From an uncultured Actinomycetes bacterium (GTDB lineage Bacteria; Actinomycetota; Thermoleophilia; UBA2241), in contig CAVWIH010000011.1 of the NCBI GenBank assembly GCA_963755025.1, positions 87,555 through 151,554 of the forward strand: DNA of 64,000 bases, read 5' to 3'. This document shows, in pieces, positions 31,722-60,529 of the stretch. Position numbers and translations under genes: made by a program. The notes below the pieces were generated by a model, which made no database searches, was not told where the DNA came from, and saw nothing but the letters and a program-made list of their open reading frames with translations. Positions within the stretch are counted from its first letter, which is position 1. Every line of letters begins with the position of its first letter.

Positions 31722-32200
31722 CTAGGGCCGCCGCAGAGGCCGTTCTAAGCGTGGGCAGATCGGTCCGGGAGCCGCCGCCGCAGTGTCCTGCAACCTCCGT
31801 GCAACCAGCTGCGCCCTGGGGCGGCTCTGACAAGGGGGGCCCTGCTCCACCACCCGCGCGCGCGCCTTCGAGGCTCAGGCCGCTTCGCTCAGAGGCTCGA
31901 TCAACTGAAGGTCGAGCCCGCCGCACACCGGGCAGGAGAGAAGGTCTTCTTCAACATCGGGCAGGAACTCGGTCTTGACGAAGCGGTGACCGCAGTCTTC
32001 GCAGAAGTAGTAAGGCATATCCATCATGCGCCTCCTTCGTATCGGTTGTCCCCCGCAGGCGTCCATTTGGCTCAGGTTCCAACCTGCGCCAGGTGAGCCC
32101 TAGCGAGAGCCTCGCCTGCCTCAACGCACGCCAGCGCCGTGACCTCATCGAGGCGCTGACGCATAGCTCCCTCCACTGACGGGCAGGCAGGCCACACCGC
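31722..32200 (+). repeat. Repeat A copy 1 (X box + TGCAACC dyad + Zn-ribbon gene); direct repeat of 60046-60529
   Basis: Near-identical about 480 bp. Confidence 0.95.
31875..32027 (-). CDS. 50-aa zinc-ribbon protein
   Basis: RBS AAGGAGG; CEDC..CPVCGG; identical protein at 60202. Confidence 0.8.
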   Translation of the reverse strand: MMDMPYYFCEDCGHRFVKTEFLPDVEEDLLSCPVCGGLDLQLIEPLSEAA

Positions 32201-32250
32201 CTTCGGGGCCCGGGTGCGCCCATGAGGTGCGGCCGCGGCCCTGCAGACAG

Positions 32251-32646
32251 TCAGCCGATTCCCACGATCGTCGCGGCCTCCTGCCGATCGCGACAGGCAC
32301 GCAAAGCCACGATCTGGCCCTCGCGGACCGTCACGACATCGTAGTTGCGATCGTTCGCCTGGCGGGCGCGATGGGCGTCGACCCCCGGTTGTCGAACCAC
32401 GACCAGTACATGGTCATCTTGGGCGACTACCTCCTCCAGCTCCATGTGCAGTCCCTGGCCCGCCTGGCGTTTGAGGGCTGCCTTGAGCTCGTTGCGGCCA
32501 TGGCAGACCTGCGGTTCGGGGTCCTCGACTGAGGGATCGAGATAGGTCCATTCCAGATCCGCGTCGATGAAGCTCAGCATGGCCGCCAAGTCGCCGCGTG
32601 CATACGCCTCGTAGGCTCGGCGAACGACCTCTTCAGGGTTCGGCAT
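32251..32646 (-). CDS. SnoaL/NTF2-like protein
   Basis: VVRRAYEAYARGD, HGR, VTVREGQIV. Confidence 0.85.
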   Translation of the reverse strand: MPNPEEVVRRAYEAYARGDLAAMLSFIDADLEWTYLDPSVEDPEPQVCHGRNELKAALKRQAGQGLHMELEEVVAQDDHVLVVVRQPGVDAHRARQANDRNYDVVTVREGQIVALRACRDRQEAATIVGIG

Positions 32647-32746
32647 CAGCTTTCTCCGTGTCGCCCTCGGAAAGTATTCCCGAACAAGGACTCTCGTGGC
32701 GGGTTGGTCAGCGGCCTGCGTGCGATGTTGCCGCCTGCTCGGGGCG

Positions 32747-33110
32747 TCGACTTAGGGCCGGCGCAGGGGCCGCTCTAAGCGTGGGAAGATCGGTCCGGGA
32801 GCCAGCGGGCGAGTCTCGCGCGACCTCCGTGCAACCAGCGGTGGGTGCCAGGGGAGGGGGAGGGGTATCCGACCCGGCCGCCACCTCTGCCACTGTGCCA
32901 CCGCTGAGTTGGGTGCGGTGGCACGGTGGCAAATGCGCGCGACCTCAGGGGAAATCCCCCTCCCCCCTCCGCTTACCCGGCTGGAATCTGCGGCGGGGCA
33001 CCTCTCCGGCGCCGCGGAAGGCGTCTCCGTCGCGCGCGAGCACATCGCAGGTATGCCGGACTTCGTGAAGGACGGCAGGGCCGCGGAAGGCAAGTAAGAG
33101 GCCACGGGAG
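32747..33110 (+). repeat. Master X-Y-Z non-coding repeat
   Basis: Contains the segments seen piecewise at 31722, 33809, 38490, 39111, 41271, 42071, 46930, 54853 and 60046. Confidence 0.85.
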
Positions 33111-33156
33111 GGGAAGACGGCTCCCGGCTCGATTAACGGTCTCCGGCTAAGGACAG

Positions 33157-33519
33157 CTAGAGCACGAAGGCGCAGCCGTCCCAGAAGGCACGCACCCTGC
33201 GTTTGCGGTGGCTCAACTCCAGCACGACCGTCTCCGGCAGACGACTGCCCGCATCGAGCCACAGCTCGAAGCCGTCGGCGTCGAGTCTGGTAAAGCGCGA
33301 AATCGGCCGCGCCGGCGGCTCGACGCCGGTCTCAAGCAGGATGAGGCCGCCGGTGCAGCAGCGGTGCACCACTTTCCACACGTAGAGGCGTCCGCCGTGC
33401 TCGCGCACATAGTCAGCCACGCCTTGGCCGGCTTCCACGCGGGGCCGGCCAGTCTCAACCGCTGGGGCGACCGCCGTCCCTCGCTCCGAATCCGCTCTCG
33501 CTTCTGATCGCTTCTCCAC
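33157..33519 (-). CDS. Hypothetical protein
   Basis: 120-aa ORF with YVREHGGRLYVW..RCC and AFWDGC; start uncertain. Confidence 0.6.
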   Translation of the reverse strand: MEKRSEARADSERGTAVAPAVETGRPRVEAGQGVADYVREHGGRLYVWKVVHRCCTGGLILLETGVEPPARPISRFTRLDADGFELWLDAGSRLPETVVLELSHRKRRVRAFWDGCAFVL

Positions 33520-33645
33520 GCTGTCCTAATGCCCCGTCGTTAGGTGGCCGAAGCGCTTCCGGTGAGCTGCCCTGCCTTCGTGCGGTCCGCTGAGGCGACG
33601 CCGCCTGGGCACTGAGACGACGCCTTATTGTTCGGCGAGCCACAT

Positions 33646-33724
33646 GCTCGCTCCGCCGCCAGGGGTCGGGGGAAGGCTCAAGAACCGGCGGGCGTATAGT
33701 TGGCGAACCAGTCGGGTCGTGCGA
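33646..33724 (+). repeat. Repeat F copy 1 (promoter-like, TATAGT)
   Basis: 38-bp identical core with 62996-63033. Confidence 0.85.
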
Positions 33725-33808
33725 TCTGGCGGGCAACGCTCAGAGCCGCCTGGGCTGGAACAGGCTGGCGGTCAAGTAGCGCCCCGAAAGCCACCCTCGT
33801 GCGCAGCA

Positions 33809-33930
33809 CTTCTCCGGGCCGCGGGCGGCCTCTCCCTCGCGCTGGAGTACACCTAAGCTATGTCGGGCTTCGTGAAGCCCAAGAGGCCGGCGGAAGACAA
33901 GGAAGAGGCCACGGAGGGCATCTCGGCGTG
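33809..33930 (+). repeat. Z repeat copy
   Basis: GAGTAC..CTATGTCGGGCTTCGTGAAG..GGAAGAGGCCACGGAGGGCATC. Confidence 0.85.
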
Positions 33931-33987
33931 TGCTACCGCTCTTACGGATGCCCTCGTCCGACCGACCGTCCGTGGTGTGCGAGTTCG

Positions 33988-34650
33988 TCAGCCGGCCTGA
34001 ATCAGCCCCGATTCATAGGCAATCACGACGAGCTGGGCGCGATCTCGGGCCGCGAGCTTGGTGAGAATACGACTCACGTGCGTCTTGACGGTGGTCAGGC
34101 TCACGCACAGGGAGTCGGCGATCTCTTGGTTGGAGAGCCCGCGCGCCACGAGCAACAGGACCTCGCGTTCGCGCTCGGTGAGCAGCTCGAGGTCGGCTCG
34201 TCGCTCCGTCGGCGTCTGCGATTGCTGTGCGAAGTGTGCAATCAGCCGCCGCGTGACGTTCGGGGCAAGCAGGGCCTCACCGGCGGCGACCACGCGGATC
34301 GCTTCGAGTAGCTCCTCGAGGGGACGGCTCTTGAGCACGAAGCCACTGGCTCCGGCGCGCATCGCGGCAAAGACGTACTCGTCTAAGTCGAAGGTCGTGA
34401 GGATCAGGACTCGCGAATCTTGTCCGGGCTCTGCTGAGGTGATCCGGCGGGTCGCCTCGATGCCGTCCATGACCGGCATGCGCACGTCCATCACAATGAC
34501 GTCCGGTGCGGCGCTCGTTGCCAGGCGGACCGCCTCGACTCCGTCGGCCGCCTGGCCGACGACCGCCATGTCCTCTTCGGCCTCGATCAGGGCAACGAAG
34601 GCGGTGCGCAGCAGCTCCTGGTCGTCGACGACTAAGACGCGGATCGTCAT
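33988..34650 (-). CDS. NarL/LuxR response regulator
   Basis: VVDDQ, MDVRMP, GFVLK, LTEREREVL..TVKTHV. Confidence 0.95.
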   Translation of the reverse strand: MTIRVLVVDDQELLRTAFVALIEAEEDMAVVGQAADGVEAVRLATSAAPDVIVMDVRMPVMDGIEATRRITSAEPGQDSRVLILTTFDLDEYVFAAMRAGASGFVLKSRPLEELLEAIRVVAAGEALLAPNVTRRLIAHFAQQSQTPTERRADLELLTEREREVLLLVARGLSNQEIADSLCVSLTTVKTHVSRILTKLAARDRAQLVVIAYESGLIQAG

Positions 34651-35924
34651 GGCATCACCTGGAGGGGTATGACGGCGCTGATGCGAAAGCCGCCACGAGG
34701 CAGCGGCTCGGCTTCAAGCGAGCCGCCGAAGGCGGCGACCCGCTCCCGCATGCCCACGATACCGTGCTGCGCACTGGAGGTCACGGGCTGCTCGGCTACC
34801 TGTCCGGTGGGGGCTGCCCCGCCGTCGTTGCTGACCACGACGCCGACCTGCTGGGCCGAGACTGTAAGCTCCACGGTAGCCTTGGCTCCCGGGGCGTGCC
34901 TGGCCACATTGGTCAGGGCCTCCTGAACGATGCGATAGATCGACAGCTGCAGGGCCGCCGACAGTCGCCGATCGGTCCCCAGGACGTGAAGTTCCACGGG
35001 AGTGCCGGCGGCTCGCATCATGTTTGCGAGTTCCTCGAGGTCGGCCAGACCGGGCGCCGGGGTAAGCTCGCCGCGTGCACCGTCTCCATCGCGCAACAGC
35101 CCCAACACCGCCCCCAGCTCCTCTTGGGCGGTTCGCGCGGTCTCCTCGATCAAGTGCAGCGTGGTACCGGCGTGCTCGGGCTGCCCTGCCATGAGTCGCC
35201 GACCGACCCCGGCCTGGACTGTGATCACGGTCAGGCTATGGGCGACCACGTCGTGCAGCTCGCGGGCGATCGCCATGCGCTCCTCGCGCAGCGTCTGGCG
35301 GGCACGCTCGGTTTCGATGATGCGCTGCTGGGCTTCCTGCTCGGCCACCCCGGCCCGGTAGGCGCGGCGGGCCGCGACGCCGTCTCCGACAAACCAGGCG
35401 GCCACGAGCGGAATGAGGATCTCGAGGGCGTGCCCCGGGTTGGCGACCTGTCCGACGGCGAGCGCACCGGCGAGGACGATCTCGGCTGTGACGAGGCCGC
35501 GCAGGGCAGCGCGTCGCGCCTGCCGTGTCACCACGATGTAGCCGGCCAGACCGAGCATGACGGCGACCGGCGGCGACGAGCGACCATAGAGGGCCAGCAC
35601 GGCGGCGCCGGTCGTGACGAGACCCAGCGTCGGCAGCGGCCAGCGTCTGCGAAGCCCAATGGGGAGGCAGGCAAGGACGGCGCACGCTTCGAGAAGGCCA
35701 GGCGGCGGAGCGTGGGCCACGATGTCGCGGTCGGCAAGGAAGTGGAAGAGCGGCCCGGGCGATCCGCGAAGGGCGGCGCTCGCACCCAGTAGGCCAAGCA
35801 GGGCGGCCGCCCAGTCGATCGCGACCCACTGCGCCTCACTCAGGCGTCGCGGCGGTGTGGGTGGCGGTTCTCGGTCTGTCGGTCGCGTAGACATGTGTCC
35901 CTTGAGTGTAGCGAGGTCAGGCAT
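34647..35924 (-). CDS. HisKA_3 sensor histidine kinase
   Basis: ERMAIARELHDVVAH, QEALTNVARHA, GIVGMRER. Confidence 0.95.
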   Translation of the reverse strand: MPDLATLKGHMSTRPTDREPPPTPPRRLSEAQWVAIDWAAALLGLLGASAALRGSPGPLFHFLADRDIVAHAPPPGLLEACAVLACLPIGLRRRWPLPTLGLVTTGAAVLALYGRSSPPVAVMLGLAGYIVVTRQARRAALRGLVTAEIVLAGALAVGQVANPGHALEILIPLVAAWFVGDGVAARRAYRAGVAEQEAQQRIIETERARQTLREERMAIARELHDVVAHSLTVITVQAGVGRRLMAGQPEHAGTTLHLIEETARTAQEELGAVLGLLRDGDGARGELTPAPGLADLEELANMMRAAGTPVELHVLGTDRRLSAALQLSIYRIVQEALTNVARHAPGAKATVELTVSAQQVGVVVSNDGGAAPTGQVAEQPVTSSAQHGIVGMRERVAAFGGSLEAEPLPRGGFRISAVIPLQVMP

Positions 35925-37026
35925 CGCGGGTGACCATGCGCCACGCCCCGATCAAAGACCACCCGACGATCCACCCGACGATCACGGCGACCATGGCCCA
36001 GGTCGGCATCGGCGGTATGCCGAGTCCCCCTCGCGCACTCGAGAGCGGGCCACCGCCCGCGCCGCCAAACGCCAGCCCCGCTGGGCGAAGCTGGTCCATG
36101 GCAACGCCGACGATGAGTCGCTGACCGTCGAGCAGATAGGGGATCACGTGGCTGGCGGCAAGCGGTGTCACGATGATCTCAAGGGCGATCAGCACGATGG
36201 TTGAGAGGGTGCGCTGCCCGGTCAGCGATCCCAAGCCGAGCCCCACCAGAAAACCGATCCCGACCTCGAGCTCGAGCCACAGCCCGACCTTGGCCATCTC
36301 GCCGGGGGCCGGATTGAACGCGGCGGTCTCGCTGGTGCTGTACTCGCCGTAGATGATGATCATATCGCGAGCGATGCTCATGTGAGTCTGCGGCAGACCG
36401 AACGCCAGAGCAGCCTGTCGGGGATGCTGCTCGAGCCAGCTCCGTAGCTGGGTCTCGTCGAGGTGGGCCGGCACGGGGACGCCGTTTAGAGCCGAGGCCA
36501 TCGAGGGAGGCTGGGCGGTGCCGTCGTAACTTGTCACCAGGCAGAGGGCGACGAACGCCACGGCAACCAGCGGCAGCAGGATCGCTAGGCCAGCGGGGAT
36601 GCGGGCGAGATAGAGGGCAAGGCGGGATCTGCCGGTGGCCACGAGATGGCGAAAGACGCCCTGGCTCAAGTCCGTGGTCGCCGCCGCGGTGCCCAGCACC
36701 GCCGCGACGATGAAGCCGAACTCGGCTATCACATTGGACAGGCTGGCGAAGGCCAGGGGGCTGCCCGCCGGCCCGTAGGCCTTTGCGTTGATCGCCTGAA
36801 GGAGCAGCCGGAAGCCGAGAACGAGGAGCGGGATACCCACGGTGAGCAGTACCACGACGATCATGAGGCCACGGCGCTTGCGCAGCTCGAGCTGCTTGGT
36901 CGTGATCAGACCCCAGGTTGGGACCCATAGGGGCAAGCGGTGTGTCGGTGCCCCTGCTGACGCTGGTATCGGCGGAGATGGTTCGAGCGGCGTCGGCCGT
37001 CGGCCGGTCGAGGAGGTGCTCGTCAT
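35917..37026 (-). CDS. ABC-2-type permease
   Basis: Multi-TM; DLSQGVFR..TGRSR; ends WRMVTRDA. Confidence 0.8.
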   Translation of the reverse strand: MTSTSSTGRRPTPLEPSPPIPASAGAPTHRLPLWVPTWGLITTKQLELRKRRGLMIVVVLLTVGIPLLVLGFRLLLQAINAKAYGPAGSPLAFASLSNVIAEFGFIVAAVLGTAAATTDLSQGVFRHLVATGRSRLALYLARIPAGLAILLPLVAVAFVALCLVTSYDGTAQPPSMASALNGVPVPAHLDETQLRSWLEQHPRQAALAFGLPQTHMSIARDMIIIYGEYSTSETAAFNPAPGEMAKVGLWLELEVGIGFLVGLGLGSLTGQRTLSTIVLIALEIIVTPLAASHVIPYLLDGQRLIVGVAMDQLRPAGLAFGGAGGGPLSSARGGLGIPPMPTWAMVAVIVGWIVGWSLIGAWRMVTRDA

Positions 37027-38241
37027 GCTTGTTCTCCGAGTCGGGTCGTGACAGATAGGAACCAGTCCTCCAGCGTGGTTTGGACCTCTTGGATGCCATA
37101 GACCGCGATCTCGCCTGCAACGAGTCGGCGGTTGATCTCGGCGACGGTCTCGCGGGATGTCCGTGTCGGCAGGGTCACGGTGATGCCCGTCTCAGTTGAG
37201 GCCGCGCCGGCGGCGATCCCGCCCTCGGCGACGAGTTGGGCAGCCCTGCTCGGCTCGGAGCAGTCCACTCGCAGTACCACGCCGCCAGCCTCCTGGAGCA
37301 ACTCCGTGATGGGGCCCTGGCGGATGACTCGTCCGTGATCGACGATCGCCACGGCGTCGCAGGTGCGCTGCACCTCATCCAGAAGATGCGAGGACAGCAC
37401 CACCGTGCGTCCCTCGCTGACGAAGCTTGCAATCAGCGCCCGCATCTCCTGTATGCCGGCCGGGTCGAGCCCGTTCATGGGCTCGTCCAACACGAGCAGC
37501 TGCGGGTCGCCGAGCAGGCACGACGCCACTCCCAGACGTTGACGCATGCCCATCGAGTAGGTGGCGACCTTGTGGTCGGCCCGCTCTGCCAGCCCCACTC
37601 TGGCTAGCGAAGGAGCGATGCGCGCCCGCGCCTGGCCTCCCCGTGCCGCCGCCAGCAGGCCGAGGTTCTCGCGTGCGGTCAAGTGGGGGTGAAAGCGCGG
37701 CTCGTCGACGATGGCCCCAACGCGGGCGAGGGCTCTGCTGCGCTCAGAGGGCACGGGAACCGCCGAGCAGGGACATCGTGCCGCTGTCGGGGCGCGTCAG
37801 CCCGAGCAGGGTGCGGATCAACGTCGTCTTGCCGGCGCCGTTGGGGCCGAGGTAGCCGAAGGCGCTGCCGCGCGGCACGAGCAGCTCCACGTCGTTGACT
37901 GCAACCGTCGTTCCGAAGCGCTTGGTGAGACCGCGGGTCTCGACGGCCCAGTCCCCTGGTGATTCCTTGGTCCAAGCGACGGGGCGCGCCGGTGGCGAGG
38001 TCTCCACCGCCTTGGTTGCGACAGCGGTCGCCCTTCTGTGGGCGACGCGCGACGCTATATCGGCTGACTCGGTCGGCAGCGACCTGGCCGTGCTCGCAAG
38101 CGCGTCCGGGCCGTCGCTCGATCGGCGCGCGCGCCGTCGTCTCCTGAGAATCACGACAGCGAAGGTCAGCGCGACCAGCACGACCCCGACGTGGATCGGG
38201 AACCCGCCGCGAAACAGGTCAACCGTGCTTATCGTGGACAC
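37023..38241 (-). CDS. ABC ATP-binding protein (frameshift near 37760)
   Basis: GPNGAGKTT, YSMGMRQR, LDEPMNGLDP, SSH. Confidence 0.9.
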
Positions 38242-38381: not shown

Positions 38382-38489
38382 GAGATGTAGGCGACTGTCT
38401 GCTTAGAAACGGCCGCGAAGCTCAGGCACCATTGACGAAGCTGGGCTGGGGAGACAAGGGCATGCAGCTGCCCTGCAAGGGGTCTTGTG

Positions 38490-38725
38490 GCCTCATGTGC
38501 AAACGTGCGGCCAGCTCGGTTTGGAGTTGCGCAGTGTGCGGGTCCGCGATCAGGAGAAAATCCCTCCCCCTTTCTGATTCCGGCTCAATGTGAGGTCAGC
38601 GGGACGTCCTCTCGGAGGTCACCGACAGTATCTCCGTCGCCCTGGAGTACGCCGAGGCTATGCCCGGCTTCGCGAAAGCCAGGAGGCCGACGGAAGGCAA
38701 GGAAGAGGCCACGGAGGTCACCGCC
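38490..38725 (+). repeat. Degenerate Y + Z repeat copy
   Basis: AAAATCCCTCCCCC followed by the Z consensus. Confidence 0.8.
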
Positions 38726-38770
38726 GGGGCGAGCCTTCTGCGGTTAGGCCATGAGGGCGGGCCTGGGCGA

Positions 38771-39001
38771 CTACGCTGCCTTCCTCCTCGGAGGGCTCGG
38801 ACGCCAATTTCTGCGTTTGTCGAGCACCTCGAAGGTTCCCGGCAAGTACACGAGCCACCTCCCATAGAGATGGTGGCCCGGGATGCGGCCCTCACGTAGC
38901 CAGCGGACGACTGTGCTTGTGCTGATCGGGACGTCGTAGCGCTCCCGAATCGCCGCGGCTGCTTCTTCGGGCGTCTTGAGCCAGTTGCGGATGTCGCTCA
39001 T
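38771..39001 (-). CDS. Excisionase-like HTH protein
   Basis: TPEEAA..STSTVVRWLREGRIPG...GRWLV. Confidence 0.75.
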   Translation of the reverse strand: MSDIRNWLKTPEEAAAAIRERYDVPISTSTVVRWLREGRIPGHHLYGRWLVYLPGTFEVLDKRRNWRPSPPRRKAA

Positions 39002-39110
39002 GGTTTGAAGATTCCCGCATGCGGCTGAGTTGGCTCCAGTCGCCTCACTAAGTGTGCGACCCCTGAGTCCTTCCCTGCTCGCCGGTGAGGCTGGGGGTTC
39101 AGCGCGTGCG

Positions 39111-39235
39111 CCTCTCCGACGACACGGGCGGTATCGCCGTCGCGTTCGAGTACGCCGGAGCTATCTCGGGGCCTCTTGAAGAGCAAGAGGCTGACGGAAA
39201 GCCAGGAAGAGGCCAGGGACGCCCATCAGCGCGTG
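39111..39235 (+). repeat. Z repeat copy (diverged)
   Basis: CCTCTCCG..GTATCGCCGTCGCG..GAGTACGCC..GGAAGAGGCC. Confidence 0.75.
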
Positions 39236-39412
39236 CGACTTGCTGTGGTTCCACACAGGGAGCCACGCTTGGGGTTCAGCTTGGCGTGCGACTTCGGGAT
39301 CCCGCCCAACGCTGCGGTTCGCCTCGTGTACGATGGTGTCGTGCACTTGCCTTTGACGCCGCCCTCCAGGCGGCCAGCTAGAGATTCCCTCCGCGCCGCG
39401 ACGGGGTTCGGG

Positions 39413-41245
39413 ATGGCCTCGCGAAGACTGCTGCGCCTACGCCTGCTCGCGGCTCTCGTCGTCTGCCTTTTGTGCGTCGGCTTGGTCTGGGGCTTGGCCG
39501 CGGCCCTCGCCGCAAGCACCACTCCGCCGCCTCCCGGCAAAGTCGTCCTGAGGCTCGGGATCACGGGCGATGCTCCCGACGACCTCAACCCGTTCGCCGG
39601 GCAGAGTCAGTCGAGCCGCGAGATCTGGTCGCTCAACTACGACCTCTTGACCGGCCTTGGCACCGACTACGGCCACCCGCAGGGTGCGGCCGCCACGGGG
39701 CTTGCCGACCGCTGGACGGTATCGGCCGGCGGCAAGGTCTGGACCTTCCACATCAGGTCGGGGGTCACCTGGCAGGACGGCGCGCCGCTCACCGCCCACG
39801 ATGTCGCCTTCACCTACAACTACGTCATCAAGAACCGGCTCACCAACTACACGGCCTACACGACCTTCATCAAGAGTGTCGTGGCCCCCGACGACAACAC
39901 CGTCGTGTTTACCTGCAGCAGGCCCAAGGCCAACATGCTCGACATGTTGGTCTACATCGTGCCGCAGCATATCTGGGGCTCCCTCCCCGGCCAGACGGTG
40001 GCCGACTACGACAACTCGGCGCCGATCGTCGGCAGCGGCCCCTTCCAGCTCACCCAGTACAGGAAATACGCCTACGCTGTGCTGACGGCCAACCCCACAT
40101 ACTGGGGCGGCGCGCCCAAGATCGACGAGGTCGACTTCGTCTACTACCGCGACGCCGACACGATGATGCACGATCTCGCGACGGGTTCGTTGCAAGGGGG
40201 CTGGGGTCTGAGCGAGGCGCAGTATCAGCAGCTCCGCGGGAGCTCCACCTACAGTCCCGCCGCCTACGTCACCCCGGCCGTCGACGAGCTCGGCTTCAAC
40301 TGCTACACGGGCCCCTCGCTGGGCAATCCCGTCCTCAGGGACTGGCGCTTCCGTCAGGCCCTGCAGTGGGCGGTCGACCACAACAAGCTCGTGCAGATCG
40401 CCTACGGCGGCCTCGCCCAGCCGGCCACCTCGGTGCTCGTCTCGCACCTGTGGAGCAACCCCGACTGGCACTGGGAGCCGCCCTCCGGCCAGGCCTACAC
40501 CTTCGACCTGGCCAAGGCCGGCCAGATGCTGACCGCCGCCGGCTACCCGCTCAAGAACGGCGTGCGCTTGGACAAACGAGGCGGGCCGATCGTGCTGCGC
40601 TTGTGGACCAGATCGAGCTCCACGTCGAGCCAGCTTGCCGGCAAGCTGATCGCCGGCTGGTTCGGCGCCTTGGGCCTCAAAATCGAGCTGTCCGCCATGA
40701 GCGACGGCGCCATCGACGACGGGCTGTACAACCAACGCGGCAACACCTTCGAACCCGACTACGACATGTTCCTCTGGGGCTGGGGCGGCGACCCCGACCC
40801 CAACTTCATTTTGAGCCACTTCACGACGCCGCAGATCGACAGCTGGAACGACTGCGCCTGGTCCGATGCCCGCTACGACAAGCTCTTCCTCGAACAGCAG
40901 ACCACGATCGACCAGACCAAGCGGGCGGCCATCGTGCACCGCATGGAGCAGATCGTCTACCAGCAGTCGCCGTACATACCTACCGTCTATCCGGAGTCGG
41001 TCGAGGCCTACAACTCCAAGGCATGGGAGGGGTGGCAGAGCACACCCGGACACGGCGGCGGCGTGTTCTTCACCTCTCCGGTTATGGCGAGCTACCTGAC
41101 CGTTCACGCCGTGAACGTCGCCGCGGCAAGGCGATCCAGTTCGCGCGCGCTACCCATCGCCTTGATCGCCGCAATCGTCGCGACGATGGTCGCAGTGGTG
41201 GTCGCAGTTGCGCTTATGAGCCGACGGGCTCGGGAGGCCGGTTAG
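39413..41245 (+). CDS. Orphan family-5 ABC substrate-binding protein with C-terminal TM anchor
   Basis: LADRW..WTFHIRSGVTWQDGAPLTAHDVAF, VGSGPF, FRQAL; hydrophobic/basic C-terminus. Confidence 0.9.
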   Translation: MASRRLLRLRLLAALVVCLLCVGLVWGLAAALAASTTPPPPGKVVLRLGITGDAPDDLNPFAGQSQSSREIWSLNYDLLTGLGTDYGHPQGAAATGLADRWTVSAGGKVWTFHIRSGVTWQDGAPLTAHDVAFTYNYVIKNRLTNYTAYTTFIKSVVAPDDNTVVFTCSRPKANMLDMLVYIVPQHIWGSLPGQTVADYDNSAPIVGSGPFQLTQYRKYAYAVLTANPTYWGGAPKIDEVDFVYYRDADTMMHDLATGSLQGGWGLSEAQYQQLRGSSTYSPAAYVTPAVDELGFNCYTGPSLGNPVLRDWRFRQALQWAVDHNKLVQIAYGGLAQPATSVLVSHLWSNPDWHWEPPSGQAYTFDLAKAGQMLTAAGYPLKNGVRLDKRGGPIVLRLWTRSSSTSSQLAGKLIAGWFGALGLKIELSAMSDGAIDDGLYNQRGNTFEPDYDMFLWGWGGDPDPNFILSHFTTPQIDSWNDCAWSDARYDKLFLEQQTTIDQTKRAAIVHRMEQIVYQQSPYIPTVYPESVEAYNSKAWEGWQSTPGHGGGVFFTSPVMASYLTVHAVNVAAARRSSSRALPIALIAAIVATMVAVVVAVALMSRRAREAG

Positions 41246-41270
41246 CCCACCTGCCGTCTGCCTTGACGCG

Positions 41271-41395
41271 CCTCCTCCGACACCACGGGTGCTATCTCGG
41301 TCGCGCATGAGTACGCCAGAGCTATGTCGGGCTTCGCGAAGGCCAGGAGGCCGACGGAAGGCAAGGAAGAGGGCACGGAGGGCATCGCCGCGTGG
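41271..41395 (+). repeat. Z repeat copy
   Basis: GAGTACGCC..GGCTTCGCGAAGGCCAGGAGGCCGACGGAAGGCAAGGAAGAGG. Confidence 0.85.
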
Positions 41396-41455
41396 CCGCC
41401 CGTCCACGGCGAGCAGCACGATGGGCGCATCTAGCGGGAAGTGGGAGCAGAATCC

Positions 41456-42639: not shown

Positions 42640-42918
42640 TTAGCCCTCGGTCAGCCCGCTCTTCATCAGGGCAACATGCGCGTCGTGGTACCACTCTCCG
42701 GGCACGCGGATGTGGAAGGGGCCGAAGCCTTCTTCGGGCACCTTCTTTGCTCGGAAGAATCCGCCCCTGAGCAGCGCGCCGCTGTAGGCCCTGGTGGGAC
42801 GTAGCGTCTGTTCCGGCCAAAACTCGACGTGCTGGATGCCCGCGTCCTTGAGCGCCGCGACGATCTGCTCGGCGAGCTTGTGGTCGTGCACGACGATGAG
42901 ATCGACTCCCTCGCCCAC
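42640..42918 (-). CDS. Hypothetical protein (DUF2007-like)
   Basis: AEQIVAALKDAGI..HIRVP..DA pattern. Confidence 0.5.
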   Translation of the reverse strand: MGEGVDLIVVHDHKLAEQIVAALKDAGIQHVEFWPEQTLRPTRAYSGALLRGGFFRAKKVPEEGFGPFHIRVPGEWYHDAHVALMKSGLTEG

Positions 42919-42924
42919 GGCTTT

Positions 42925-43155
42925 CTACCTCTCTAAGTCTTTCAGAAGCGCCTCAGCATCCGTAGCGTCCTCGCGACTGACGCGTATCCGTCCGCGGTAG
43001 TACAGATGCCCGGGCGACTCCCCATCGGCGACGAACGGGATGCCGGCACTTTGGAGGATGGACTTGGTGACCGCGACAAGTCCCGGATCGATTGAGACGA
43101 GGACGGTGACCAGCTCAAGCGGCGGCGGGGAATGCGACTCGTGTCTGGCTGACAC
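42925..43155 (-). CDS. DUF2007-like putative signal-transducing protein
   Basis: KSILQSAGIPF..IRVSREDATDAEALL; RBS GAGGAGG. Confidence 0.7.
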   Translation of the reverse strand: MSARHESHSPPPLELVTVLVSIDPGLVAVTKSILQSAGIPFVADGESPGHLYYRGRIRVSREDATDAEALLKDLER

Positions 43156-43220: not shown

Positions 43221-43543
43221 GCCGCTGAGTGCCGTCAAGTGCCGTTCCATGCCGTCTGTAGCCGCTCCGTTCGGTTGCAGGAGGGTTGCAAGCGGGCTTT
43301 TGGGGGCCTTCTGAAGCAGGCGCAGATACACGAAACCCCTGCGTCTACGCCTGAAGAGGGTGGTAGCGCATACCGGATTCGAACCGGTGTTACCGCCGTG
43401 AGAGGGCATTGGTGTTGGTGTCAGGGAGTGCCGCCGAGCGCCCCAGAATGCCGTCGCACGCGTGAAGAAATGGGCACGACTGCCAGCGAGTGTCAGTGTG
43501 AGCCATGGTCAGCCGCGGCGCGCGGTTGCAGGAGGGTTGCAAG
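43221..43543 (-). other. attP-like site: tRNA-Glu(CTC) 3' half (43361-43407) flanked by arm-type direct repeats
   Basis: Minus strand GCCCTCTCACGGCGGTAACACCGGTTCGAATCCGGTATGCGCTACCA; CGGTTGCAGGAGGGTTGCAAG at 43272 and 43523. Confidence 0.85.
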
Positions 43544-44609
43544 GACGGCACGGCCGGAGACGGATGGTCGAGCATGGCCACGATACCCTTCACCCTGACG
43601 GACTGCGGCGATAGCGGAAGCGCGGCGCACTCGTCTGCCCGTGTCGCGCGGGGCACCGACATCTCGCCTCGACCCGTCGCAGCGCCGGGGCCTAAACCAG
43701 CCCAAAGTTAGGGGGATGTTGATCGAGCGCCCCACAGCCGACCGCGCTTTCAGGGCACGCTCGGCAGCTGATCGCCTTGACTGGCTGAGTCGAGCGAGAA
43801 GCAGCCGCCACCCATGCTTGGTGTCGGGACAGTCGACACGATGCCCGCGATTGTACTAGTAGCGAAGTCATTGTCCGAGCTGTTAGTGCTCGGAACCGGT
43901 GCCGAGGTGGCCGAACGGTCAGGGCCTGCGGTAGCTGTCGCCCCAGCACTGGCGACGGGCCGACGCTCGGCGTTGAACTCGGCAGGGGCGCAGCCTACGG
44001 GCCGTCCGAGGTTCCGAGAGAAGGTATATGATTCTTATAAGAGATTGCTCGTCAGGACCCTCGTGGTGTGGAGGTTGTTTTGCATAGCGCTTCTTGGCGG
44101 CTTGGCTACAGGCATGGAGTCTGCAACCGTTGGGAGAGCCTCTGCGGCGATCCTCTAGAGATCTTTCGCAAGGGAGTTCCGGCGGGTCGACCCTATGCGG
44201 TGACCTAATCGAGCCGTACGGTGGGATGGCGAACTTGAACACTCCGAACTCGTTGTTCAATCTGGGTCGGTACAAACGAGTCTCTTGGTCGCCCCTAGCT
44301 ACAAGGCGTTCGGTAGGACGCTACAGCTCCGCGTTGACCGGTACATCCGCGGCTTGGAGGAGGGGCTTGCGGCTTCTTTCGTCAAGAGAGTCGACGACGA
44401 CAAGCGACGACAGGATGAAATCGACTTAGTAGGACGCCAGAGCGAGGTCCGGCAGGGAGGGTCTTCGGGAGACGCGGTCGCGGCCGCCCCCCTGCTGCAA
44501 ATATCTTCGGAGGGCGCTTCGGCAAGTCCCGTGACTTGATCTTCCCCGTAAGCCTGTCGTCCGGGTCCGTAATGGAACCGGGTGGCCACATGGACCGAAA
44601 GAGGAAGGA

Positions 44610-50873: not shown

Positions 50874-50878
50874 CGGCC

Positions 50879-54141: not shown

Positions 54142-54786
54142 CGCCGACGCGCCCGCGCGCATGCGAGCGTCTGTGCGGCGGGTGGAGCGGTGGCTTCGAA
54201 GACCCTTGAAGCGACGGAAGGTATCGCCACCATCGTGGACACGCCAGCGCGAGAATCGGTGAGGAGTGCGGAGGGCGTCAGGGATCTCTCGAACCCCGAC
54301 ACCCTCCAGGAGTCACCGGCGTCAGGGGGGGCCTGGGGGTGCCGGCAGCGGGACTCTACCTTGTCGACGCCAACGTGGCCACTGCCCGCGTCGGACCGCT
54401 CCAGCCCCGTCTCGACGTCTCACCCCGACGCCCCACGTGTTTGCGGTCAGCACGTAGCCAGAGGTGTCGAAGGTCGGAGCTTGGAGTATGCGGAAGGTCC
54501 GCGGCCCGCTCTGACGACAACCGGGTGGCCCATGGTACCCTGCGTAACGAGAGGGTTCGGGTTGAGGAGTCGACCGGGCCCTCTCGCTGTGCGGAGATAC
54601 CGTGCAGGCGCGCCGAGTACCCCCAGTAAGCCAAGGAGAGCGCCAGCCGAGCCCCCGTCTAGGCGGCGCTCTCCTTGCGGGGTGCTACCAGCGCCTCGTG
54701 GGGGCGAGTCGCCGGTGCGCGAATCCTACGCCAAGACCGACCGCCAGGGACCTTCGAATGACTGCTGCCACCGCGGCTCCGGGTTC

Positions 54787-54910
54787 GTGAAGGCGTCGGG
54801 CGTCCATCAATCTGGGCCGCGGGTGTGCGGGTGGCTATGGGTAGCGGGAGGACCGTCTCCCCGGCCACGGAAGGTATCTCCGTCGCGCCCTGAGATAGTG
54901 GTGGCTATCG
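54787..54910 (+). repeat. Repeat D copy 2
   Basis: Matches 42010-42128. Confidence 0.9.
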
Positions 54911-55233
54911 AGGGCTTTTCGCATCTGTACTTGATCTTTGAGCTCGATCGCTGCGCTCCGGCCGAGATGACGCGCGTGCCTTTCCTAAGCGACCAGCCCC
55001 ACGGCCTCTTCGCCTGCCGCCACCCGGCCCGGCCCAACCCCATCGGCTTGACTGTCGTCACGCTCCAGGGGCGCGAGGGCACCGCGCTCACGGTTGGCGG
55101 CGTCGACATGCTCGATGGCACGCCGCTGCTCGATATCAAACCTTATCTGCCGCAGTTCGACAGCTTCCCCGAAGCCAGTGAGGGCTGGTTCGCCGGCCAG
55201 GGCGATCGTCCCAAGCCGGCCGGAAGGGAGTGA
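54907..55233 (+). pseudogene. trmO: TrmO/TsaA tRNA methyltransferase, 5'-truncated
   Basis: IEGFSHL, HGLFACR.P.RPNPIGL, VDMLDGTPLLDIKPY; N-terminus replaced by repeat D. Confidence 0.85.
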
Positions 55234-58619: not shown

Positions 58620-58755
58620 GCCGCCTTGGCCGGGTCAGAGCTGATTTCGCCGAGGGGCCGTCTGCTCGCTTGGAACGGGGTAGGACAGAAGGCGCTCGGG
58701 CAGCACTGCTTTGCGCCCAGATCAAGTGCGGTCCCCACAAGACAAGGAGAACGAG

Positions 58756-59073
58756 ATGGCCAAGTTCCTGTTCGCCTACAAAGGTGGCGGCATGGGTCCC
58801 TCGCCCGAAGCACAGCAGAAGGCCATGGAGGCCTGGATGGGCTGGTTCGGCTCCCTGGGCGGGCAGCTGGTCGACCAGGGCAGTCCGTTCGCGCCAGGCT
58901 CCACGACGATCTCGCCCGACGGGAGCGTCAACGCCGGCAGCCCCTCACCGCTCACCGGCTACTCGATCATCTCGGCCGACTCGCTGGCCGAGGCCAATGC
59001 GAAGGCCAAGGGTTGTCCGGTCCTGACAAGCGGCGGCTCGATCGAGGTCTACGAGGCCTTGGAGATGGGCTGA
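58756..59073 (+). CDS. YciI/DGPF-family protein
   Basis: WMGWFGSLG..VDQG.P, GYSII.A, AKGCP..GGSIEV. Confidence 0.8.
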   Translation: MAKFLFAYKGGGMGPSPEAQQKAMEAWMGWFGSLGGQLVDQGSPFAPGSTTISPDGSVNAGSPSPLTGYSIISADSLAEANAKAKGCPVLTSGGSIEVYEALEMG

Positions 59074-59147
59074 GGCTCTTCGGGTGCAGGCCCAAGCCCA
59101 GCGAAGCCGACAGGGCACGCACACCGTCGCGGGACTGGGCCATGGCC

Positions 59148-59280
59148 CTAGTAAAGAAGCGCAAGTAGTCCCTTTGCCGTGTAGATGCCACCGATCACGA
59201 CGAACAGGACCAGCAACACTGGACGGTCGTAGCGCGCCAGCCACGCCTGCGCACGGGCTACGCTTACCGCAACGCGCTCA
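59148..59280 (-). pseudogene. Membrane-protein C-terminal fragment (GAP/Sap-like)
   Basis: AWLARYDRPVLLVLFVVIGG..KG. Confidence 0.4.
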
Positions 59281-59385
59281 CGAGTGATAGGGCGACACCC
59301 ACGATGAGGCCCGGCAGCGCGCAGGCGACCGCACGACAAGCCTCCTGGCTGCACGAACGGTTATCGCCCGGATTGGGCGCGGAAC

Positions 59386-59796
59386 ATGCCCTGCGGGTAC
59401 GACTCACCGCCAGGGAGGTTTGCGGCGATGTACTGCGGGCCGGTCACCATCCACGGCGTGGTCTGCAGCCCTGACGGCGAGCGGGGTCTTGTCAAGCCAA
59501 GCCAGGGCGCGAAGACCTACGGCGTCGGCCGACACTGCGCGATCGAAGGCTGTGCGACCGTCCTGTCCCGGTACAACCCGAGTAGCACCTGCGCGATGCA
59601 CGGTCGCGGCTGGAAGGCCGAACTGCGGCCCGTCACGCGTCACACCCAGAAGGGCCCCGAACGCATCGCCTACTGCCAAAATCCGAGATGCGGCGCTGAG
59701 TTTGTCACCAGCAATCCAGCTCGCAAGTACTGCTCGGACCGCTGCCGCATGCAGACCTATCAGCTCCGCCTGACTGCCGGGACCCAGCGCCGGTGA
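59386..59796 (+). CDS. Double zinc-finger protein (CGNR-like C-terminus)
   Basis: CAIEGC..C.MH and CQNPRC..KYCSDRCR; start uncertain. Confidence 0.6.
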   Translation: MPCGYDSPPGRFAAMYCGPVTIHGVVCSPDGERGLVKPSQGAKTYGVGRHCAIEGCATVLSRYNPSSTCAMHGRGWKAELRPVTRHTQKGPERIAYCQNPRCGAEFVTSNPARKYCSDRCRMQTYQLRLTAGTQRR

Positions 59797-59831
59797 CGCT
59801 GACGATCGAGGCAGGCTGCACCTAGCCGCGC

Positions 59832-60029
59832 GTGGTGATGGAGCGTAGCGACCAGATCCTTGCTCAAATCCTGGAAGACGCCATCGGTTGCCGCGCCGTG
59901 GTGGCCGGCATGCTGCTCCTGGACCTTCCCCCGGATATCGACGAGGAGCTTGCCGCCTGCGATCAGGACCTCACGCGCCTCATCGTGGCCGCACTGCGCC
60001 ATCTGGGTCTCTCGGTTCAACTCAACTGA
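59832..60029 (+). CDS. Small hypothetical protein
   Basis: 65-aa amphipathic ORF. Confidence 0.35.
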   Translation: MVMERSDQILAQILEDAIGCRAVVAGMLLLDLPPDIDEELAACDQDLTRLIVAALRHLGLSVQLN

Positions 60030-60045
60030 GCGTCCCGTCCGGTCG

Positions 60046-60529
60046 ACTTGGGGCCGCCGCAGAGGCCGCTCTAAGCGTGGGCAGACCGATCCGGGAGCCG
60101 CCGCCGCAGTGTCCTGCAACCACCGTGCAACCAGCTGCGCCCTGGGGCGGCTCTGACAAGGGGGGCCCTGCTCCCACCACCCGCGCGCGCGCCTTCGAGG
60201 CTCAGGCCGCTTCGCTCAGAGGCTCGATCAACTGAAGGTCGAGCCCGCCGCACACCGGGCAGGAGAGAAGGTCTTCTTCAACATCGGGCAGGAACTCGGT
60301 CTTGACGAAGCGGTGACCGCAGTCTTCGCAGAAGTAGTAAGGCATATCCATCATGCGCCTCCTTCGTATCGGTTGTCCCCCGCAGGCGTCCATTTGGCTC
60401 AGGTTCCAACCTGCGCCAGGTGAGCCCTAGCGAGAGCCTCGCCTGCCTCAACGCACGCCAGCGCCGTGACCTCATCGAGGCGCTGACACACAGCCCCTCC
60501 AACTGACGGGTAGGGCGGACCGCACCGTC
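60046..60529 (+). repeat. Repeat A copy 2
   Basis: Near-identical to 31722-32200. Confidence 0.95.
60202..60354 (-). CDS. 50-aa zinc-ribbon protein (identical to 31875)
   Basis: Same protein sequence and RBS. Confidence 0.8.
   Translation of the reverse strand: MMDMPYYFCEDCGHRFVKTEFLPDVEEDLLSCPVCGGLDLQLIEPLSEAA

What the first reader, a model, noticed from the sequence alone, without database searches (positions are those of the whole stretch)
31722..60529. Candidate new system: same-orientation X-Y-Z repeat family that partitions the island into gene cassettes
Seen: a roughly 360-bp master (32747-33110) recurs in pieces, always on +. X is at 31722, 32747, 46930 and 60046; Y at 32851, about 38500 and 47018; Z at 33001, 33809, 38608, 39111 and 41271; half-Z at 42071 and 54853. 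Between 31.7 and 42.1 kb each interval holds one coherent unit: Zn-ribbon+SnoaL, a hypothetical, the four-gene ABC/two-component operon, a Xis-like gene, an orphan SBP, and a hypothetical. X carries the same TGCAACC-N4-TGCAACC dyad as the arms of the tRNA-Glu att site (first half degenerate in the master copy). The repeats do not look like CRISPR repeats, attC sites or TIR-bounded MITEs. Inference: an integron-like capture/shuffling platform built from integrase arm sites, or tandem decayed mini-elements recombining through shared anchors.
Basis: partly seen in the sequence, partly recalled or inferred. Interest (0 to 1): 0.85.

Follow-up and report, generated by a model that had tools for sequence, protein, structure and literature searches.

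The report
Repeat-punctuated gene island at tRNA-Glu
The repeats are real and mark the joints of a patchwork of small gene units that piled up next to a tRNA-Glu gene in an uncultured soil actinobacterium, most likely leftovers of attachment sites of small integrating elements rather than a proven new gene-capture machine.

Summary
X (4 copies), Z/half-Z (7) and Y (2 good, 1 doubtful) all lie on + at the stated places. In the 3.37 Mb assembly they occur only here and, for Z, on the end of contig C1.

They are not coding, not structured RNA, not attC-like hairpins and not scattered MITE/REP elements.

They belong to a tRNA-Glu(CTC) island complex:
- The window holds a 47-nt tRNA-Glu 3' fragment (43361-43407, minus) between two 'arm' repeats carrying TGCAACC-N4-TGCAACC.
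- The real tRNA-Glu lies on C1, which probably abuts the window's right end.
- With that join, 31.7-43.4 kb and 60.05-~71.8 kb are two collinear, related ~11.7 kb elements with different cargo.

Relatives in four genera show the same grammar: tRNA-Glu, arms on its strand, Z-type repeats on the opposite strand, cargo differing between them. The heptamer pair follows tRNA-Glu, tRNA-Ile and tRNA-Ala genes across the family. X ends in an anticodon-arm-like hairpin.

Best reading (0.5): tandem accretion and decay of small, mostly integrase-less integrative units whose junction modules (Z-Y-X or arm) persist as anchors. A true integron-like, trans-acting cassette system is not excluded (about 0.2). 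No recombinase lies in the array, and no excision junction was seen.

The parts
31702..31858 (+). X copy; its left end is cut by an IS. Part of the 480-bp repeat 31725-32202.
   Evidence: nhmmer; alignment; IS inverted repeat I1; rve domains
31875..32030 (-). 51-aa Zn-ribbon gene inside the 480-bp repeat; second copy in the frame 60202-60426
   Evidence: Pfam Zn_ribbon_8 below cut-off; repeat D1; BLAST 97%
32724..33135 (+). Master junction module: X (32724-32886), Y (32841-32997), Z (32996-33135)
   Evidence: Y hairpin z -4.43; same layout as hZ'-palindrome-arm junctions in relatives
33806..33943 (+). Z copy, preceded by a collapsed N-terminal plus C-terminal remnant of a large secreted-protein gene (33646-33805)
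33988..38241 (-). Cargo: LuxR-type response regulator, histidine kinase, permease-like ORF, ABC ATPase (split)
   Evidence: Pfam; 76% homologue on another contig of G004 with borders 32 and 48 nt from the repeats
38441..38736 (+). Doubtful Y (38441-38603) plus Z copy (38600-38736)
38771..39001 (-). Cargo: 76-aa HTH protein (weak HTH_17, Xis-like)
   Evidence: 22.4 bits, cut-off 27
39104..39248 (+). Z copy
39176..41245 (+). Cargo: family-5 solute-binding protein (likely start near 39414)
   Evidence: Pfam; translation; homologues elsewhere match only 39433-41214
41266..41408 (+). Z copy, 21 nt after the SBP stop codon
42003..42196 (+). hZ copy with its left extension (D13 plus D7)
42640..43155 (-). 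92-aa gene and DUF2007-like gene, backbone genes next to the att arm; 78-90% to C1
43201..43310 (-). Arm repeat (P'-type) with TTGCAACCCTCCTGCAACC and GRYGGCAC-type repeats
43361..43407 (-). 47-nt 3' fragment of tRNA-Glu(CTC), from the anticodon loop to CCA
   Evidence: BLAST to C1:38533-38579; sequence
43451..43557 (-). [quoted passage not shown]
46902..47165 (+). X-Y module without Z
54780..54983 (+). hZ copy fused to a 5'-truncated TrmO paralogue (54907-55233)
60028..60530 (+). X copy plus Zn-ribbon gene; distal end of the tRNA-proximal element

Best explanation
X, Y, Z/hZ and the 'arm' repeats are pieces of the attachment-site (junction) region of a family of small integrative elements that target the 3' half of tRNA genes, here tRNA-Glu(CTC).

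The stretch from 31.7 kb to the window's end, probably continuing about 7.8 kb into contig C1 up to the real tRNA-Glu, is an accretion array. Related elements inserted one behind another and then lost integrase and parts of their junctions. They survive as integrase-less units, cis-mobilizable or fixed.

A full junction reads, in the tRNA's direction: Z', then a G/C-rich palindrome (Y'), then a heptamer-pair segment (arm or X'), with or without a tRNA fragment. Most junctions in the window are reduced to Z' alone.

The heptamers (TGCAACC, 11-bp phased) and the anticodon-arm-like hairpin at the outer end of X would be the arm-type and core-type sites of a tyrosine integrase supplied in trans. 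Cargo is replaced at these anchors by site-specific or homologous recombination.

Shown: the repeats, their confinement to the island, their fixed orientation relative to tRNA-Glu, the tRNA fragment, the two paralogous elements, differing cargo, and breakpoints at the repeats.

Inferred: that the repeats are protein-binding att parts, that an integrase acts on them, and that units still move.
For: 1. tRNA target and displaced fragment. The true tRNA-Glu(CTC) is at C1:38504-38579, followed by arm and DUF2007 genes 90% identical to window 43407-42812. The 47-nt fragment in the window is flanked by two arms.

2. Contig join. The window's 3'-open ORF (63009-63998) matches residues 713-803 of a 956-aa homologue. 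C1's 5'-open ORF matches residues 806-900 of the same protein, but weakly (26%, E 0.01). With that join, 31725-43407 and 60051-~71829 share five collinear anchors (97, 86, 86, 78, 90%) around different cargo.

3. Same grammar in relatives.
- G010: tRNA-Glu, then 3 arms on its strand, 2 with tRNA fragments, and 3 Z-type copies on the other strand.
- G005, G009 and G007 behave likewise.
- G031, another genus: tRNA-Glu, 7 arm hits on its strand (6 loci, 2 of them adjacent) and one partial hit on the other strand, 3 Z copies on the other strand, one 385-aa tyrosine integrase inside, and a tRNA-like T-loop/acceptor fragment at the far end.

4. Co-orientation. All contigs with 2 or more Z copies in the genus search are uniform. 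So are 9 of 9 metagenome contigs with 2 or more copies, and arms are opposite to Z in 4 of 4. Those contigs were picked by holding the core 21-mer.

5. Heptamer pair.
- 7 in the own genome, all in the C1/C11 island.
- Present in 31 of 61 family genomes, with 0 for the reversed control in all 61.
- About 55 nt behind the 3' end of tRNA-Glu, tRNA-Ile or tRNA-like ends in 5 of 6 single sites fetched; an arm also lies beside tRNA-Ala in G031.

6. X copies share sequence up to GACGCC-N7-GGCGGYAACA, which aligns with the tRNA-Glu anticodon arm. They diverge right after it in 4 of 5 copies with an intact left end.

7. Junction modules in G009 and G005 read Z', short palindrome or G/C palindrome, then arm. 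This is the same order as the master Z'Y'X'.

8. Breakpoints at the repeats.
- TrmO homology to the intact G010 orthologue stops at GGCTATC|GAGGGCTT.
- A 92-aa gene is truncated at an hZ end in G004.
- C1/window homology ends inside Z_33806.

9. Known precedent. Tandem islands bounded by target-gene fragments, many without integration modules, occur in Dehalococcoides (PMC3146451, passages read). CIME and accretion are reviewed in PMC5704250 (passages read).
Against: - Only one tRNA fragment lies in the window. Six consecutive units (33.0-42.2 kb) are separated by Z alone, without arm or tRNA fragment. Ordinary accretion predicts a whole junction each time, so six separate partial deletions must be assumed.
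- No integrase lies between 31.7 and 60.5 kb. The nearest is a broken one at 14045-15336 with no heptamers near it.
- No integrase was seen among the 30 large ORFs of related islands scanned against Pfam; 20 lay in loci of four genus relatives and 10 in loci of G031 and G014 in other genera. The search was not exhaustive; the one integrase found came from a whole-genome PF00589 search.
- The loops of the hairpin in X differ from the tRNA-Glu anticodon loop, so X is not a simple recombination product with tRNA-Glu.
- Units are very small, down to one 76-83-aa ORF per 0.5-0.8 kb in contig L036. This is unlike known integrative elements.
- No protein binding, excision or circular form has been shown.
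- The C11-C1 join rests on one weak protein match.
- The genome is a metagenome bin, 84% complete with 5% contamination.
Confidence: 0.5

Rival explanations
1. A true cassette platform that works like an integron but is built differently. Z' is the recombination site carried by each small cassette, acting as double-stranded DNA. The tRNA-Glu-proximal arm, or the Z'Y'X' module, is the primary site. A tyrosine recombinase encoded elsewhere inserts, excises and reshuffles single-gene cassettes.
For: - The array arm-[cargo-Z']xn in the tRNA direction matches the attI-[ORF-attC]n layout.
- Units can be one small ORF plus one repeat: L036 has three in 2 kb.
- Repeat ends lie 11-47 nt from stop codons in 12 cases.
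- Cargo borders are tight around ordinary chromosomal-type genes such as the SBP and the ABC/two-component operon.
- Six Z-only junctions in a row are hard to get by accretion.
- The conserved left part of Z ends at GCTATC, with different right flanks.
- Distribution is patchy: 12 of 61 genomes and 4 of 11 genera.
Against: - No linked recombinase.
- Z has no fold excess: mean z -0.38 and -0.86 over 42 copies. It has no consensus structure.
- Cargo genes point both ways.
- No circular or deletion junction was found in four public runs, though only fragmentary contigs were available.
- The junctions at GCTATC lie at two different offsets. They can equally be the inner edge of a conserved att region.
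Confidence: 0.2
2. The repeats are passive homology. They are relics of segmental duplication of one ancestral island, with its intergenic regions kept alike by gene conversion. Cargo is exchanged between strains by ordinary homologous recombination at these anchors, and no dedicated protein acts on them.
For: - There are two collinear 11.7-kb paralogous elements.
- A 480-bp repeat has 97% identity.
- A [gene-Z] unit is present once whole and once collapsed.
- The region holds many pseudogenes and IS elements.
Against: - The Z core is kept across four genera and 37 distinct copies, with near-invariant blocks while the flanks are unrelated.
- Copies in the window are only 75-87% alike, so they are neither recent duplicates nor homogenised.
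- Strict co-orientation relative to tRNA-Glu holds in every locus seen.
- The heptamer pair is conserved family-wide next to several different tRNA genes.
Confidence: 0.13
3. Regulatory punctuation. The arms carry a promoter/operator, with TGCAACC pairs as the site of an island regulator. Z acts as an insulator or terminator at 3' ends of genes. The repeats travel with cargo but do not drive recombination.
For: - By my reading of the feature lists, the gene after an arm is co-oriented and starts within about 200 nt in 8 of 11 cases.
- Z mostly lies behind stop codons: 26 upstream co-oriented genes against 16 opposite, and 23 convergent downstream genes against 15.
- A small hairpin followed by a purine-rich run lies in the right part of Z.
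Against: - Arms are tied to tRNA 3' ends and to duplicated tRNA fragments, which regulation does not explain.
- Z has no strong hairpin or T-run.
- Z has a fixed orientation whatever the direction of the flanking genes.
- No transcript data exist.
Confidence: 0.12
4. Assembly artefact: a chimeric or mis-joined contig of a metagenome bin creates apparent repeats.
For: The genome is a bin with 5% contamination and 39 contigs. The repeats sit near a contig end.
Against: - Copies are diverged (67-97%), not collapsed identical repeats.
- The same families and grammar recur in 11 other genomes of the family and in 15 independent metagenome contigs.
Confidence: 0.03

Closest known systems
Tandem target-gene-specific genomic islands, e.g. 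the Dehalococcoides ssrA-specific islands (PMC3146451; passages read)
   Same: - Several islands lie in a row downstream of one small-RNA gene.
- They are bounded by the gene and by direct repeats of its 3' end.
- Conserved sequence sits next to those repeats.
- Cargo is strain-specific.
- Many units lack an integration module and were proposed to be cis-mobilizable.
   Different: - There the boundaries are always the 20-bp target repeat, the integrase is a serine recombinase, and 16 islands keep a six-gene integration module.
- Here most boundaries are Z or X repeats that are not target duplications.
- Units go down to one small ORF.
- No integration module lies in the array.
CIMEs and site-specific accretion of ICE/IME-type elements (review PMC5704250; passages read)
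   Same: Decayed elements keep att sites but lose integrase. New elements insert into a resident att site, giving tandems with internal att sites.
   Different: - CIMEs are defined by retained attL and attR holding the target identity segment. Only one such fragment is present in the window.
- No conjugation or mobilisation genes were seen.
Sedentary chromosomal integrons and CALINs (PMC4889954; passages read)
   Same: - Array of small gene units, each with one copy of a locus-specific, co-oriented repeat of about 100-140 bp.
- Repeats are more alike within a locus or lineage than between them.
- Cargo is varied.
   Different: - No IntI.
- The repeats are not imperfect palindromes.
- ORFs point both ways.
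- The array is anchored at a tRNA gene with arm-type repeats.
- That paper reports that the Actinobacteria genomes it analysed lacked complete integrons.
Lambda-type attP organisation: arm-type sites, core-type sites, accessory sites (textbook knowledge, recalled, not from a call)
   Same: Phased short direct repeats lie on both sides of a core that mimics a symmetric tRNA stem-loop. A second repeat type (GRYGGCAC) is present, and palindromes lie nearby.
   Different: No binding protein has been identified. The heptamers in X are inverted relative to those in the arms. Function is untested.

Membership tests
Integron / CALIN | Integron integrase (IntI) next to the array | tested here: not met
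   No PF00589 or PF00239 hit falls between 31.7 and 60.5 kb of the window; the own-genome hits lie elsewhere. Pfam scans of the ORFs agree. The IntI-specific insertion was not examined.
Integron / CALIN | attC: imperfect palindrome that folds as a single-strand hairpin | tested here: not met
   42 Z/hZ copies give mean fold z -0.38 on the given strand and -0.86 on the reverse. RNAalifold predicts 0 pairs on 23 copies. R'/R'' box motifs were not searched.
Integron / CALIN | Cassettes of mostly one ORF, co-oriented, site at the 3' end | tested here: inconclusive
   One-gene units exist and repeat ends lie 11-47 nt from stops in 12 cases. Orientation is mixed: downstream gene opposite in 23, same in 15, none in 10 of 48 copies (own rough gene calls).
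Tandem tRNA-targeted genomic islands / CIME accretion | Intact target tRNA plus displaced 3' fragment as direct repeat | tested here: met
   tRNA-Glu(CTC) at C1:38504-38579 and the 47-nt fragment at window 43361-43407. Further fragments occur in G010, G005, G009 and G007. Adjacency of C1 and C11 is inferred.
Tandem tRNA-targeted genomic islands / CIME accretion | Every unit bounded by att sites holding the target identity segment | tested here: not met
   Units between 33.0 and 42.2 kb are bounded by Z only. BLAST of the att region finds no further tRNA fragment in the window.
Tandem tRNA-targeted genomic islands / CIME accretion | Cognate integrase in at least some members of the family | tested here: inconclusive
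   One 385-aa tyrosine integrase lies inside the G031 tRNA-Glu island. No integrase was found among the 30 large ORFs scanned in related islands; 20 came from loci of four genus relatives and 10 from loci of G031 and G014. Its specificity is unknown.
Tandem tRNA-targeted genomic islands / CIME accretion | Excision to a circular form or an empty site | tested here: inconclusive
   Four public runs were laid but held only short contigs, and no circular junction appeared. The one back-joint (38717>33157) is a diverged orthologue.
MITE / REP-type interspersed repeats | Many copies scattered over the genome, both orientations, terminal inverted repeats and target duplications | tested here: not met
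   9 to 10 Z copies, all in one island complex and in one relative orientation. X and Y occur only in the window. No terminal inverted repeats or target duplications were seen in the alignments.
CRISPR array | Short near-identical repeats at regular spacing with unique spacers | tested here: not met
   Repeats are 100-160 bp and 67-88% alike, with spacing 504-4800 bp.
Structured non-coding RNA (Rfam families) | Match to a covariance model, or conserved pairs with covariation | tested here: not met
   Rfam at gathering level finds only tRNA-Leu in the window. An E<=1 search of 31500-43000 finds nothing. No consensus structure.

The most novel reading that the evidence does not exclude
An uncultured Thermoleophilia-type family carries a cassette platform anchored at tRNA-Glu. 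Single genes or operons are each tagged by a ~100-nt double-stranded site (the Z core TCTCCG-N15-TCTCCGTCGCGC...GCTATC). A trans-encoded tyrosine recombinase that also reads TGCAACC arm repeats inserts, excises and reshuffles them. This would be an integron analogue that evolved independently, in a phylum where the cited survey found no complete integrons.
Probability: 0.2. Interest if true: 0.8.

Novelty: new variant of a known kind. Interest (0 to 1): 0.5.

Why it matters
If the repeats are active sites, this would be a way of building and reshuffling arrays of single accessory genes at a tRNA gene, without a linked integrase and without hairpin sites. It would occur in an abundant but uncultured soil and peat actinobacterial family. 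It would widen the known set of gene-capture platforms and bear on the open question of how cassettes are formed from ordinary genes.

If the repeats are only decayed att parts, the locus is still a clear example of fine-grained accretion and decay at a tRNA hot spot. The heptamer pair and Z core also give ready markers for finding such islands in metagenomes.

Tried and rejected
- Z as a 5' fragment of TrmO: rejected. A protein-level resemblance (…VAPEYAE…) suggested it. But the intact G010 orthologue shows that TrmO homology begins only at ATCGAGGGCTT and the sequence to its left is unrelated. The intact TrmO on C33 is not hit by the Z profile.

- Z as a small ORF or leader peptide (MSGF[AV]KA…): rejected. 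Only about 20 codons are shared, one copy has an in-frame stop and another a frameshift. Column variability shows no 3-base period: 0.726, 0.756 and 0.725.

- Z, X or Y as known RNA: no Rfam match. No consensus fold for Z. No fold excess for X (z -0.43 and +0.31).

- Y as a family of three: only two copies are convincing.

- Reads: the look-up of sequencing runs gave 17 holders, the best with 0.33 of the sampled words, all kept as contigs. Read laying on 31001-51000 with X1-X4 gave short pieces only. The joint 38717>33157 (X2, X4) carries 40 other letters and 25 mismatches in 293 nt, so it is a diverged relative. The skip 43245>43500 has only 26 letters on its shorter side. Parts without cover say nothing.

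- Linked recombinase upstream of tRNA-Glu: the 401-aa gene beside it in G031 is a membrane protein without homologues at the other loci.

- An ECF-type promoter reading of TGCAACC was considered from memory only. No matching -10 element was seen by eye, and it was not tested.

- Exact-pattern scans: viral contigs gave 0 matches and the genome collection only 3. These were exact-match scans of one 26-mer, so they say little about absence.

Supplementary files of the papers were not opened; the island maps and alignments of PMC3146451 lie partly in its additional files. Structure prediction, complex prediction, the large protein searches and the protein atlas were not used.

Full report
**What the window is.** It is G000:C11:87555-151554 and ends at the end of its contig. 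The genome is a metagenome bin of 3.37 Mb in 39 contigs, 84% complete with 5% contamination. Titles of related records call them uncultured Thermoleophilia/Actinomycetota. G+C is about 0.70-0.73 up to 12 kb and 0.61-0.69 from 12 kb onward.

**Checking the observation.**
- X has four copies. Z has five, plus two of a second subfamily ('half-Z').
- Y has two convincing copies and one doubtful.
- In the whole assembly, the Z profile hits only the window (7 copies, +) and contig C1 (2 copies, minus). X and Y hit only the window. A sequence-only covariance model adds one weak copy at 53773-53851.
- The heptamer pair TGCAACC-N4-TGCAACC occurs 6 times in the window with at most 2 mismatches, against 0.49 expected. 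It occurs 7 times exactly in the genome, all in C11 or C1, while the single heptamer occurs 134 times.

**Gene content**.
- An IS with rve domains lies at 30701-31725 and abuts X_31722.
- In order then come: a Zn-ribbon gene, a SnoaL-like gene, the X-Y-Z master, a hypothetical, Z, a LuxR/HK/permease/ABC operon with a split ATPase, (Y)Z, a small HTH gene, Z, a family-5 SBP, Z, a hypothetical, hZ, ORF137, a 92-aa gene, a DUF2007-like gene, arm, tRNA-Glu fragment, arm.
- Further right lie an acyltransferase, a beta-helix protein, X-Y, a BNR protein, an IS5-like element, a PLP decarboxylase, hZ fused to a truncated TrmO, a diacylglycerol-kinase-like gene, X plus a second Zn-ribbon gene, a split GGDEF/EAL gene, and a large secreted protein running off the contig.
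- No recombinase lies between 31.7 and 60.5 kb. A broken tyrosine integrase sits at 14045-15336 beside a terminase-like gene.

**What Z is not.**
- Not coding: no 3-base periodicity over 37 distinct copies. The shared 'ORF' is about 20 codons, with a stop or frameshift in two copies.
- Not a known or structured RNA.
- Not hairpin-forming: mean z -0.38 and -0.86 over 42 copies.
- Not derived from TrmO. The intact orthologue in G010 shows that the TrmO paralogue here lost its first ~45 codons, and that homology begins exactly after GGCTATC of hZ.
- Its consensus core is CcTCTCCGaGGCCaCGGAaGGTATCTCCGTCGCGC..GAG..GCTAT. Many hZ copies have three phased TGCGGG words to the left, and a small hairpin plus a purine run to the right.

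**The tRNA-Glu connection.**
- The sequence between the two minus-strand heptamer pairs holds the last 47 nt of tRNA-Glu(CTC).
- The only tRNA-Glu(CTC) gene of the assembly is on C1. It is followed by an arm and DUF2007 genes 90% identical to window 43407-42812, an hZ copy, a second arm and, near the contig end, a Z copy. All orientations are opposite to those in the window.
- The window's last ORF, open at its 3' end, matches residues 713-803 of a 956-aa homologue. C1's last ORF, open at its 5' end, matches residues 806-900, but weakly. C11 therefore most likely runs into the reverse of C1, putting the real tRNA-Glu about 7.8 kb beyond the window.
- With that join, BLAST shows two collinear elements of about 11.7 kb: 31725-43407 and 60051-~71829. 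Each starts with X plus the Zn-ribbon gene and ends with the 92-aa gene, DUF2007, arm and tRNA-Glu (or its fragment).
- Their shared anchors are 97, 86, 86, 78 and 90% identical, but the cargo between differs.
- The 28.3-kb spacing of the two best X copies is thus the spacing of two related elements.

**Relatives.**
- In the genus, 8 of 12 genomes have Z/hZ copies. Wherever a contig holds several, they share one strand: G005:C8 5, G009:C38 4, G010:C5 4, G004:C28 7, G003:C174 4.
- In the family, 12 of 61 genomes and 4 of 11 genera have them.
- In G010, tRNA-Gln and tRNA-Glu are followed by an arm, 4 kb of cargo, Z', a tRNA fragment plus arm, 8 kb of cargo, Z', Z', then 115 nt later another fragment plus arm.
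- G005, G009 and G007 are similar.
- G031, from another genus, has the same layout with one integrase inside.
- Cargo differs everywhere: serpin, aldo-keto reductase, proteases, an MreB paralogue, sulfatase, MFS transporter.
- G004:C28 shares with the window a PLP decarboxylase (91% aa) and the hZ+ORF137 unit (84% nt). It has about 2.4 kb more between ORF137 and the 92-aa gene, ending in an hZ copy that truncates that gene.
- Fifteen metagenome contigs holding the core 21-mer show the same features. Nine of 9 with two or more copies are co-oriented, arms are opposite in 4 of 4, and L036 has three one-ORF units within 2 kb.

**The heptamer pair and X.**
- The pair occurs in 31 of 61 family genomes, and the reversed control in none.
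- In other genera it sits about 55 nt behind the 3' end of tRNA-Glu or tRNA-Ile, and an arm lies next to tRNA-Ala. It is followed by three or four GRYGGCAC-like words. That is the layout expected of the element-side arm of an att site of tRNA-targeting integrative elements.
- X carries the pair in the opposite orientation. At its outer end it carries GACGCC-N7-GGCGGYAACA, which aligns with the tRNA-Glu anticodon arm. Four of 5 X copies with an intact end share it and diverge immediately after.
- Junctions in G009 and G005 read Z', palindrome, arm. A site in G014 reads heptamer pair, TGCGGG palindrome, hZ.
- The master X-Y-Z is therefore one complete junction module, and the other copies are partial ones.

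**Position relative to genes.**
- Z lies in short intergenic gaps, often 11-47 nt from the stop of a convergent gene or 21-123 nt behind a co-oriented one. It keeps its orientation whatever the genes do (own rough gene calls).
- Homologues of the SBP and of the ABC/two-component operon elsewhere match only the genes themselves, with borders 32-185 nt from the repeats.

**Interpretation.**
- The data fit a tRNA-Glu hot spot where related small integrative elements accreted and decayed. This is a known kind of structure (PMC3146451 and PMC5704250, passages read). X, Y, Z and the arms are the conserved junction parts.
- Two things do not fit simple accretion: the run of six Z-only junctions, and the very small units.
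- These keep open an integron-like mechanism with Z as a double-stranded cassette site and a trans recombinase.
- Complete integrons were not found in the Actinobacteria genomes analysed in PMC4889954 (passage read). Z fails the attC hairpin test, so this would be an analogue, not a member.
- No excision product was seen, but the public runs gave only fragmentary contigs.

**Verdict.** This is a new variant of a known kind, tandem tRNA-linked island arrays, with unusual fine-grained, orientation-locked punctuation repeats conserved across four genera. Interest 0.5.

Noticed in passing
window 14045-18443: A tyrosine integrase is split into two frames (14045-14848 SAM-like N-terminal part, 14875-15336 catalytic part). 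A terminase large-subunit-like ORF lies at 17724-18443. This is probably a prophage remnant at the left of the low-G+C region, with no heptamer pairs near it.
   Followed up: partly
window 19799-25435: Amino-acid permease, B12-binding corrinoid protein, MttB-family methyltransferase and a MerR/GAF regulator, forming a methylamine or betaine-type methyltransferase cluster inside the low-G+C region.
   Followed up: no
window 28071-30640: Tandem ~150-bp coding repeats (G..LWAWG.N..GQLG-like) on + at 28.07-29.05 kb, and their inverted counterpart at 29.7-30.6 kb. These look like two beta-propeller-repeat genes facing each other.
   Followed up: no
window 30701-31725: An IS with rve/rve_3 domains and 41-nt imperfect terminal inverted repeats (30701-30741 / 31685-31725). 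It is inserted exactly at the left end of X_31722.
   Followed up: partly
window 48673-49669: An IS5-like element (289-aa DDE transposase), 86% identical to a copy on metagenome contig L036, where it lies next to three hZ-bounded mini-units.
   Followed up: partly
window 25591-26124 and 55262-55812: A 553-bp inverted repeat of 81% identity whose ORFs have no Pfam match. It links the region left of the array with the region near hZ-TrmO.
   Followed up: no
window 37023-38241; 60529-62787: Likely pseudogenes. The ABC ATPase is split into two overlapping frames, and a GAF-GGDEF ORF and an EAL ORF are separated by about 220 nt. Together with the truncated TrmO they point to decay of the island.
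   Followed up: no
G031:C4:633-777 kb and G031:C5:118-164 kb: One genome of another genus has 38 exact heptamer pairs, often as triplets in 11-bp phase. They are spread over about 140 kb and 45 kb in blocks of either orientation, a far larger array of the same kind of sites.
   Followed up: partly
L021 9461-10862 (G004:C28): The only X copy outside the window lies directly upstream of an MreB/Mbl-family gene inside the G004 island, probably an extra paralogue carried as cargo.
   Followed up: no
L013 9025-9525 (G000:C1:39025-39525): Two 120-bp copies (78% identical) of the start of the 92-aa gene flank a 260-bp stretch holding an hZ copy. This is either a small gene duplication or an insertion with a long duplication.
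   Followed up: partly
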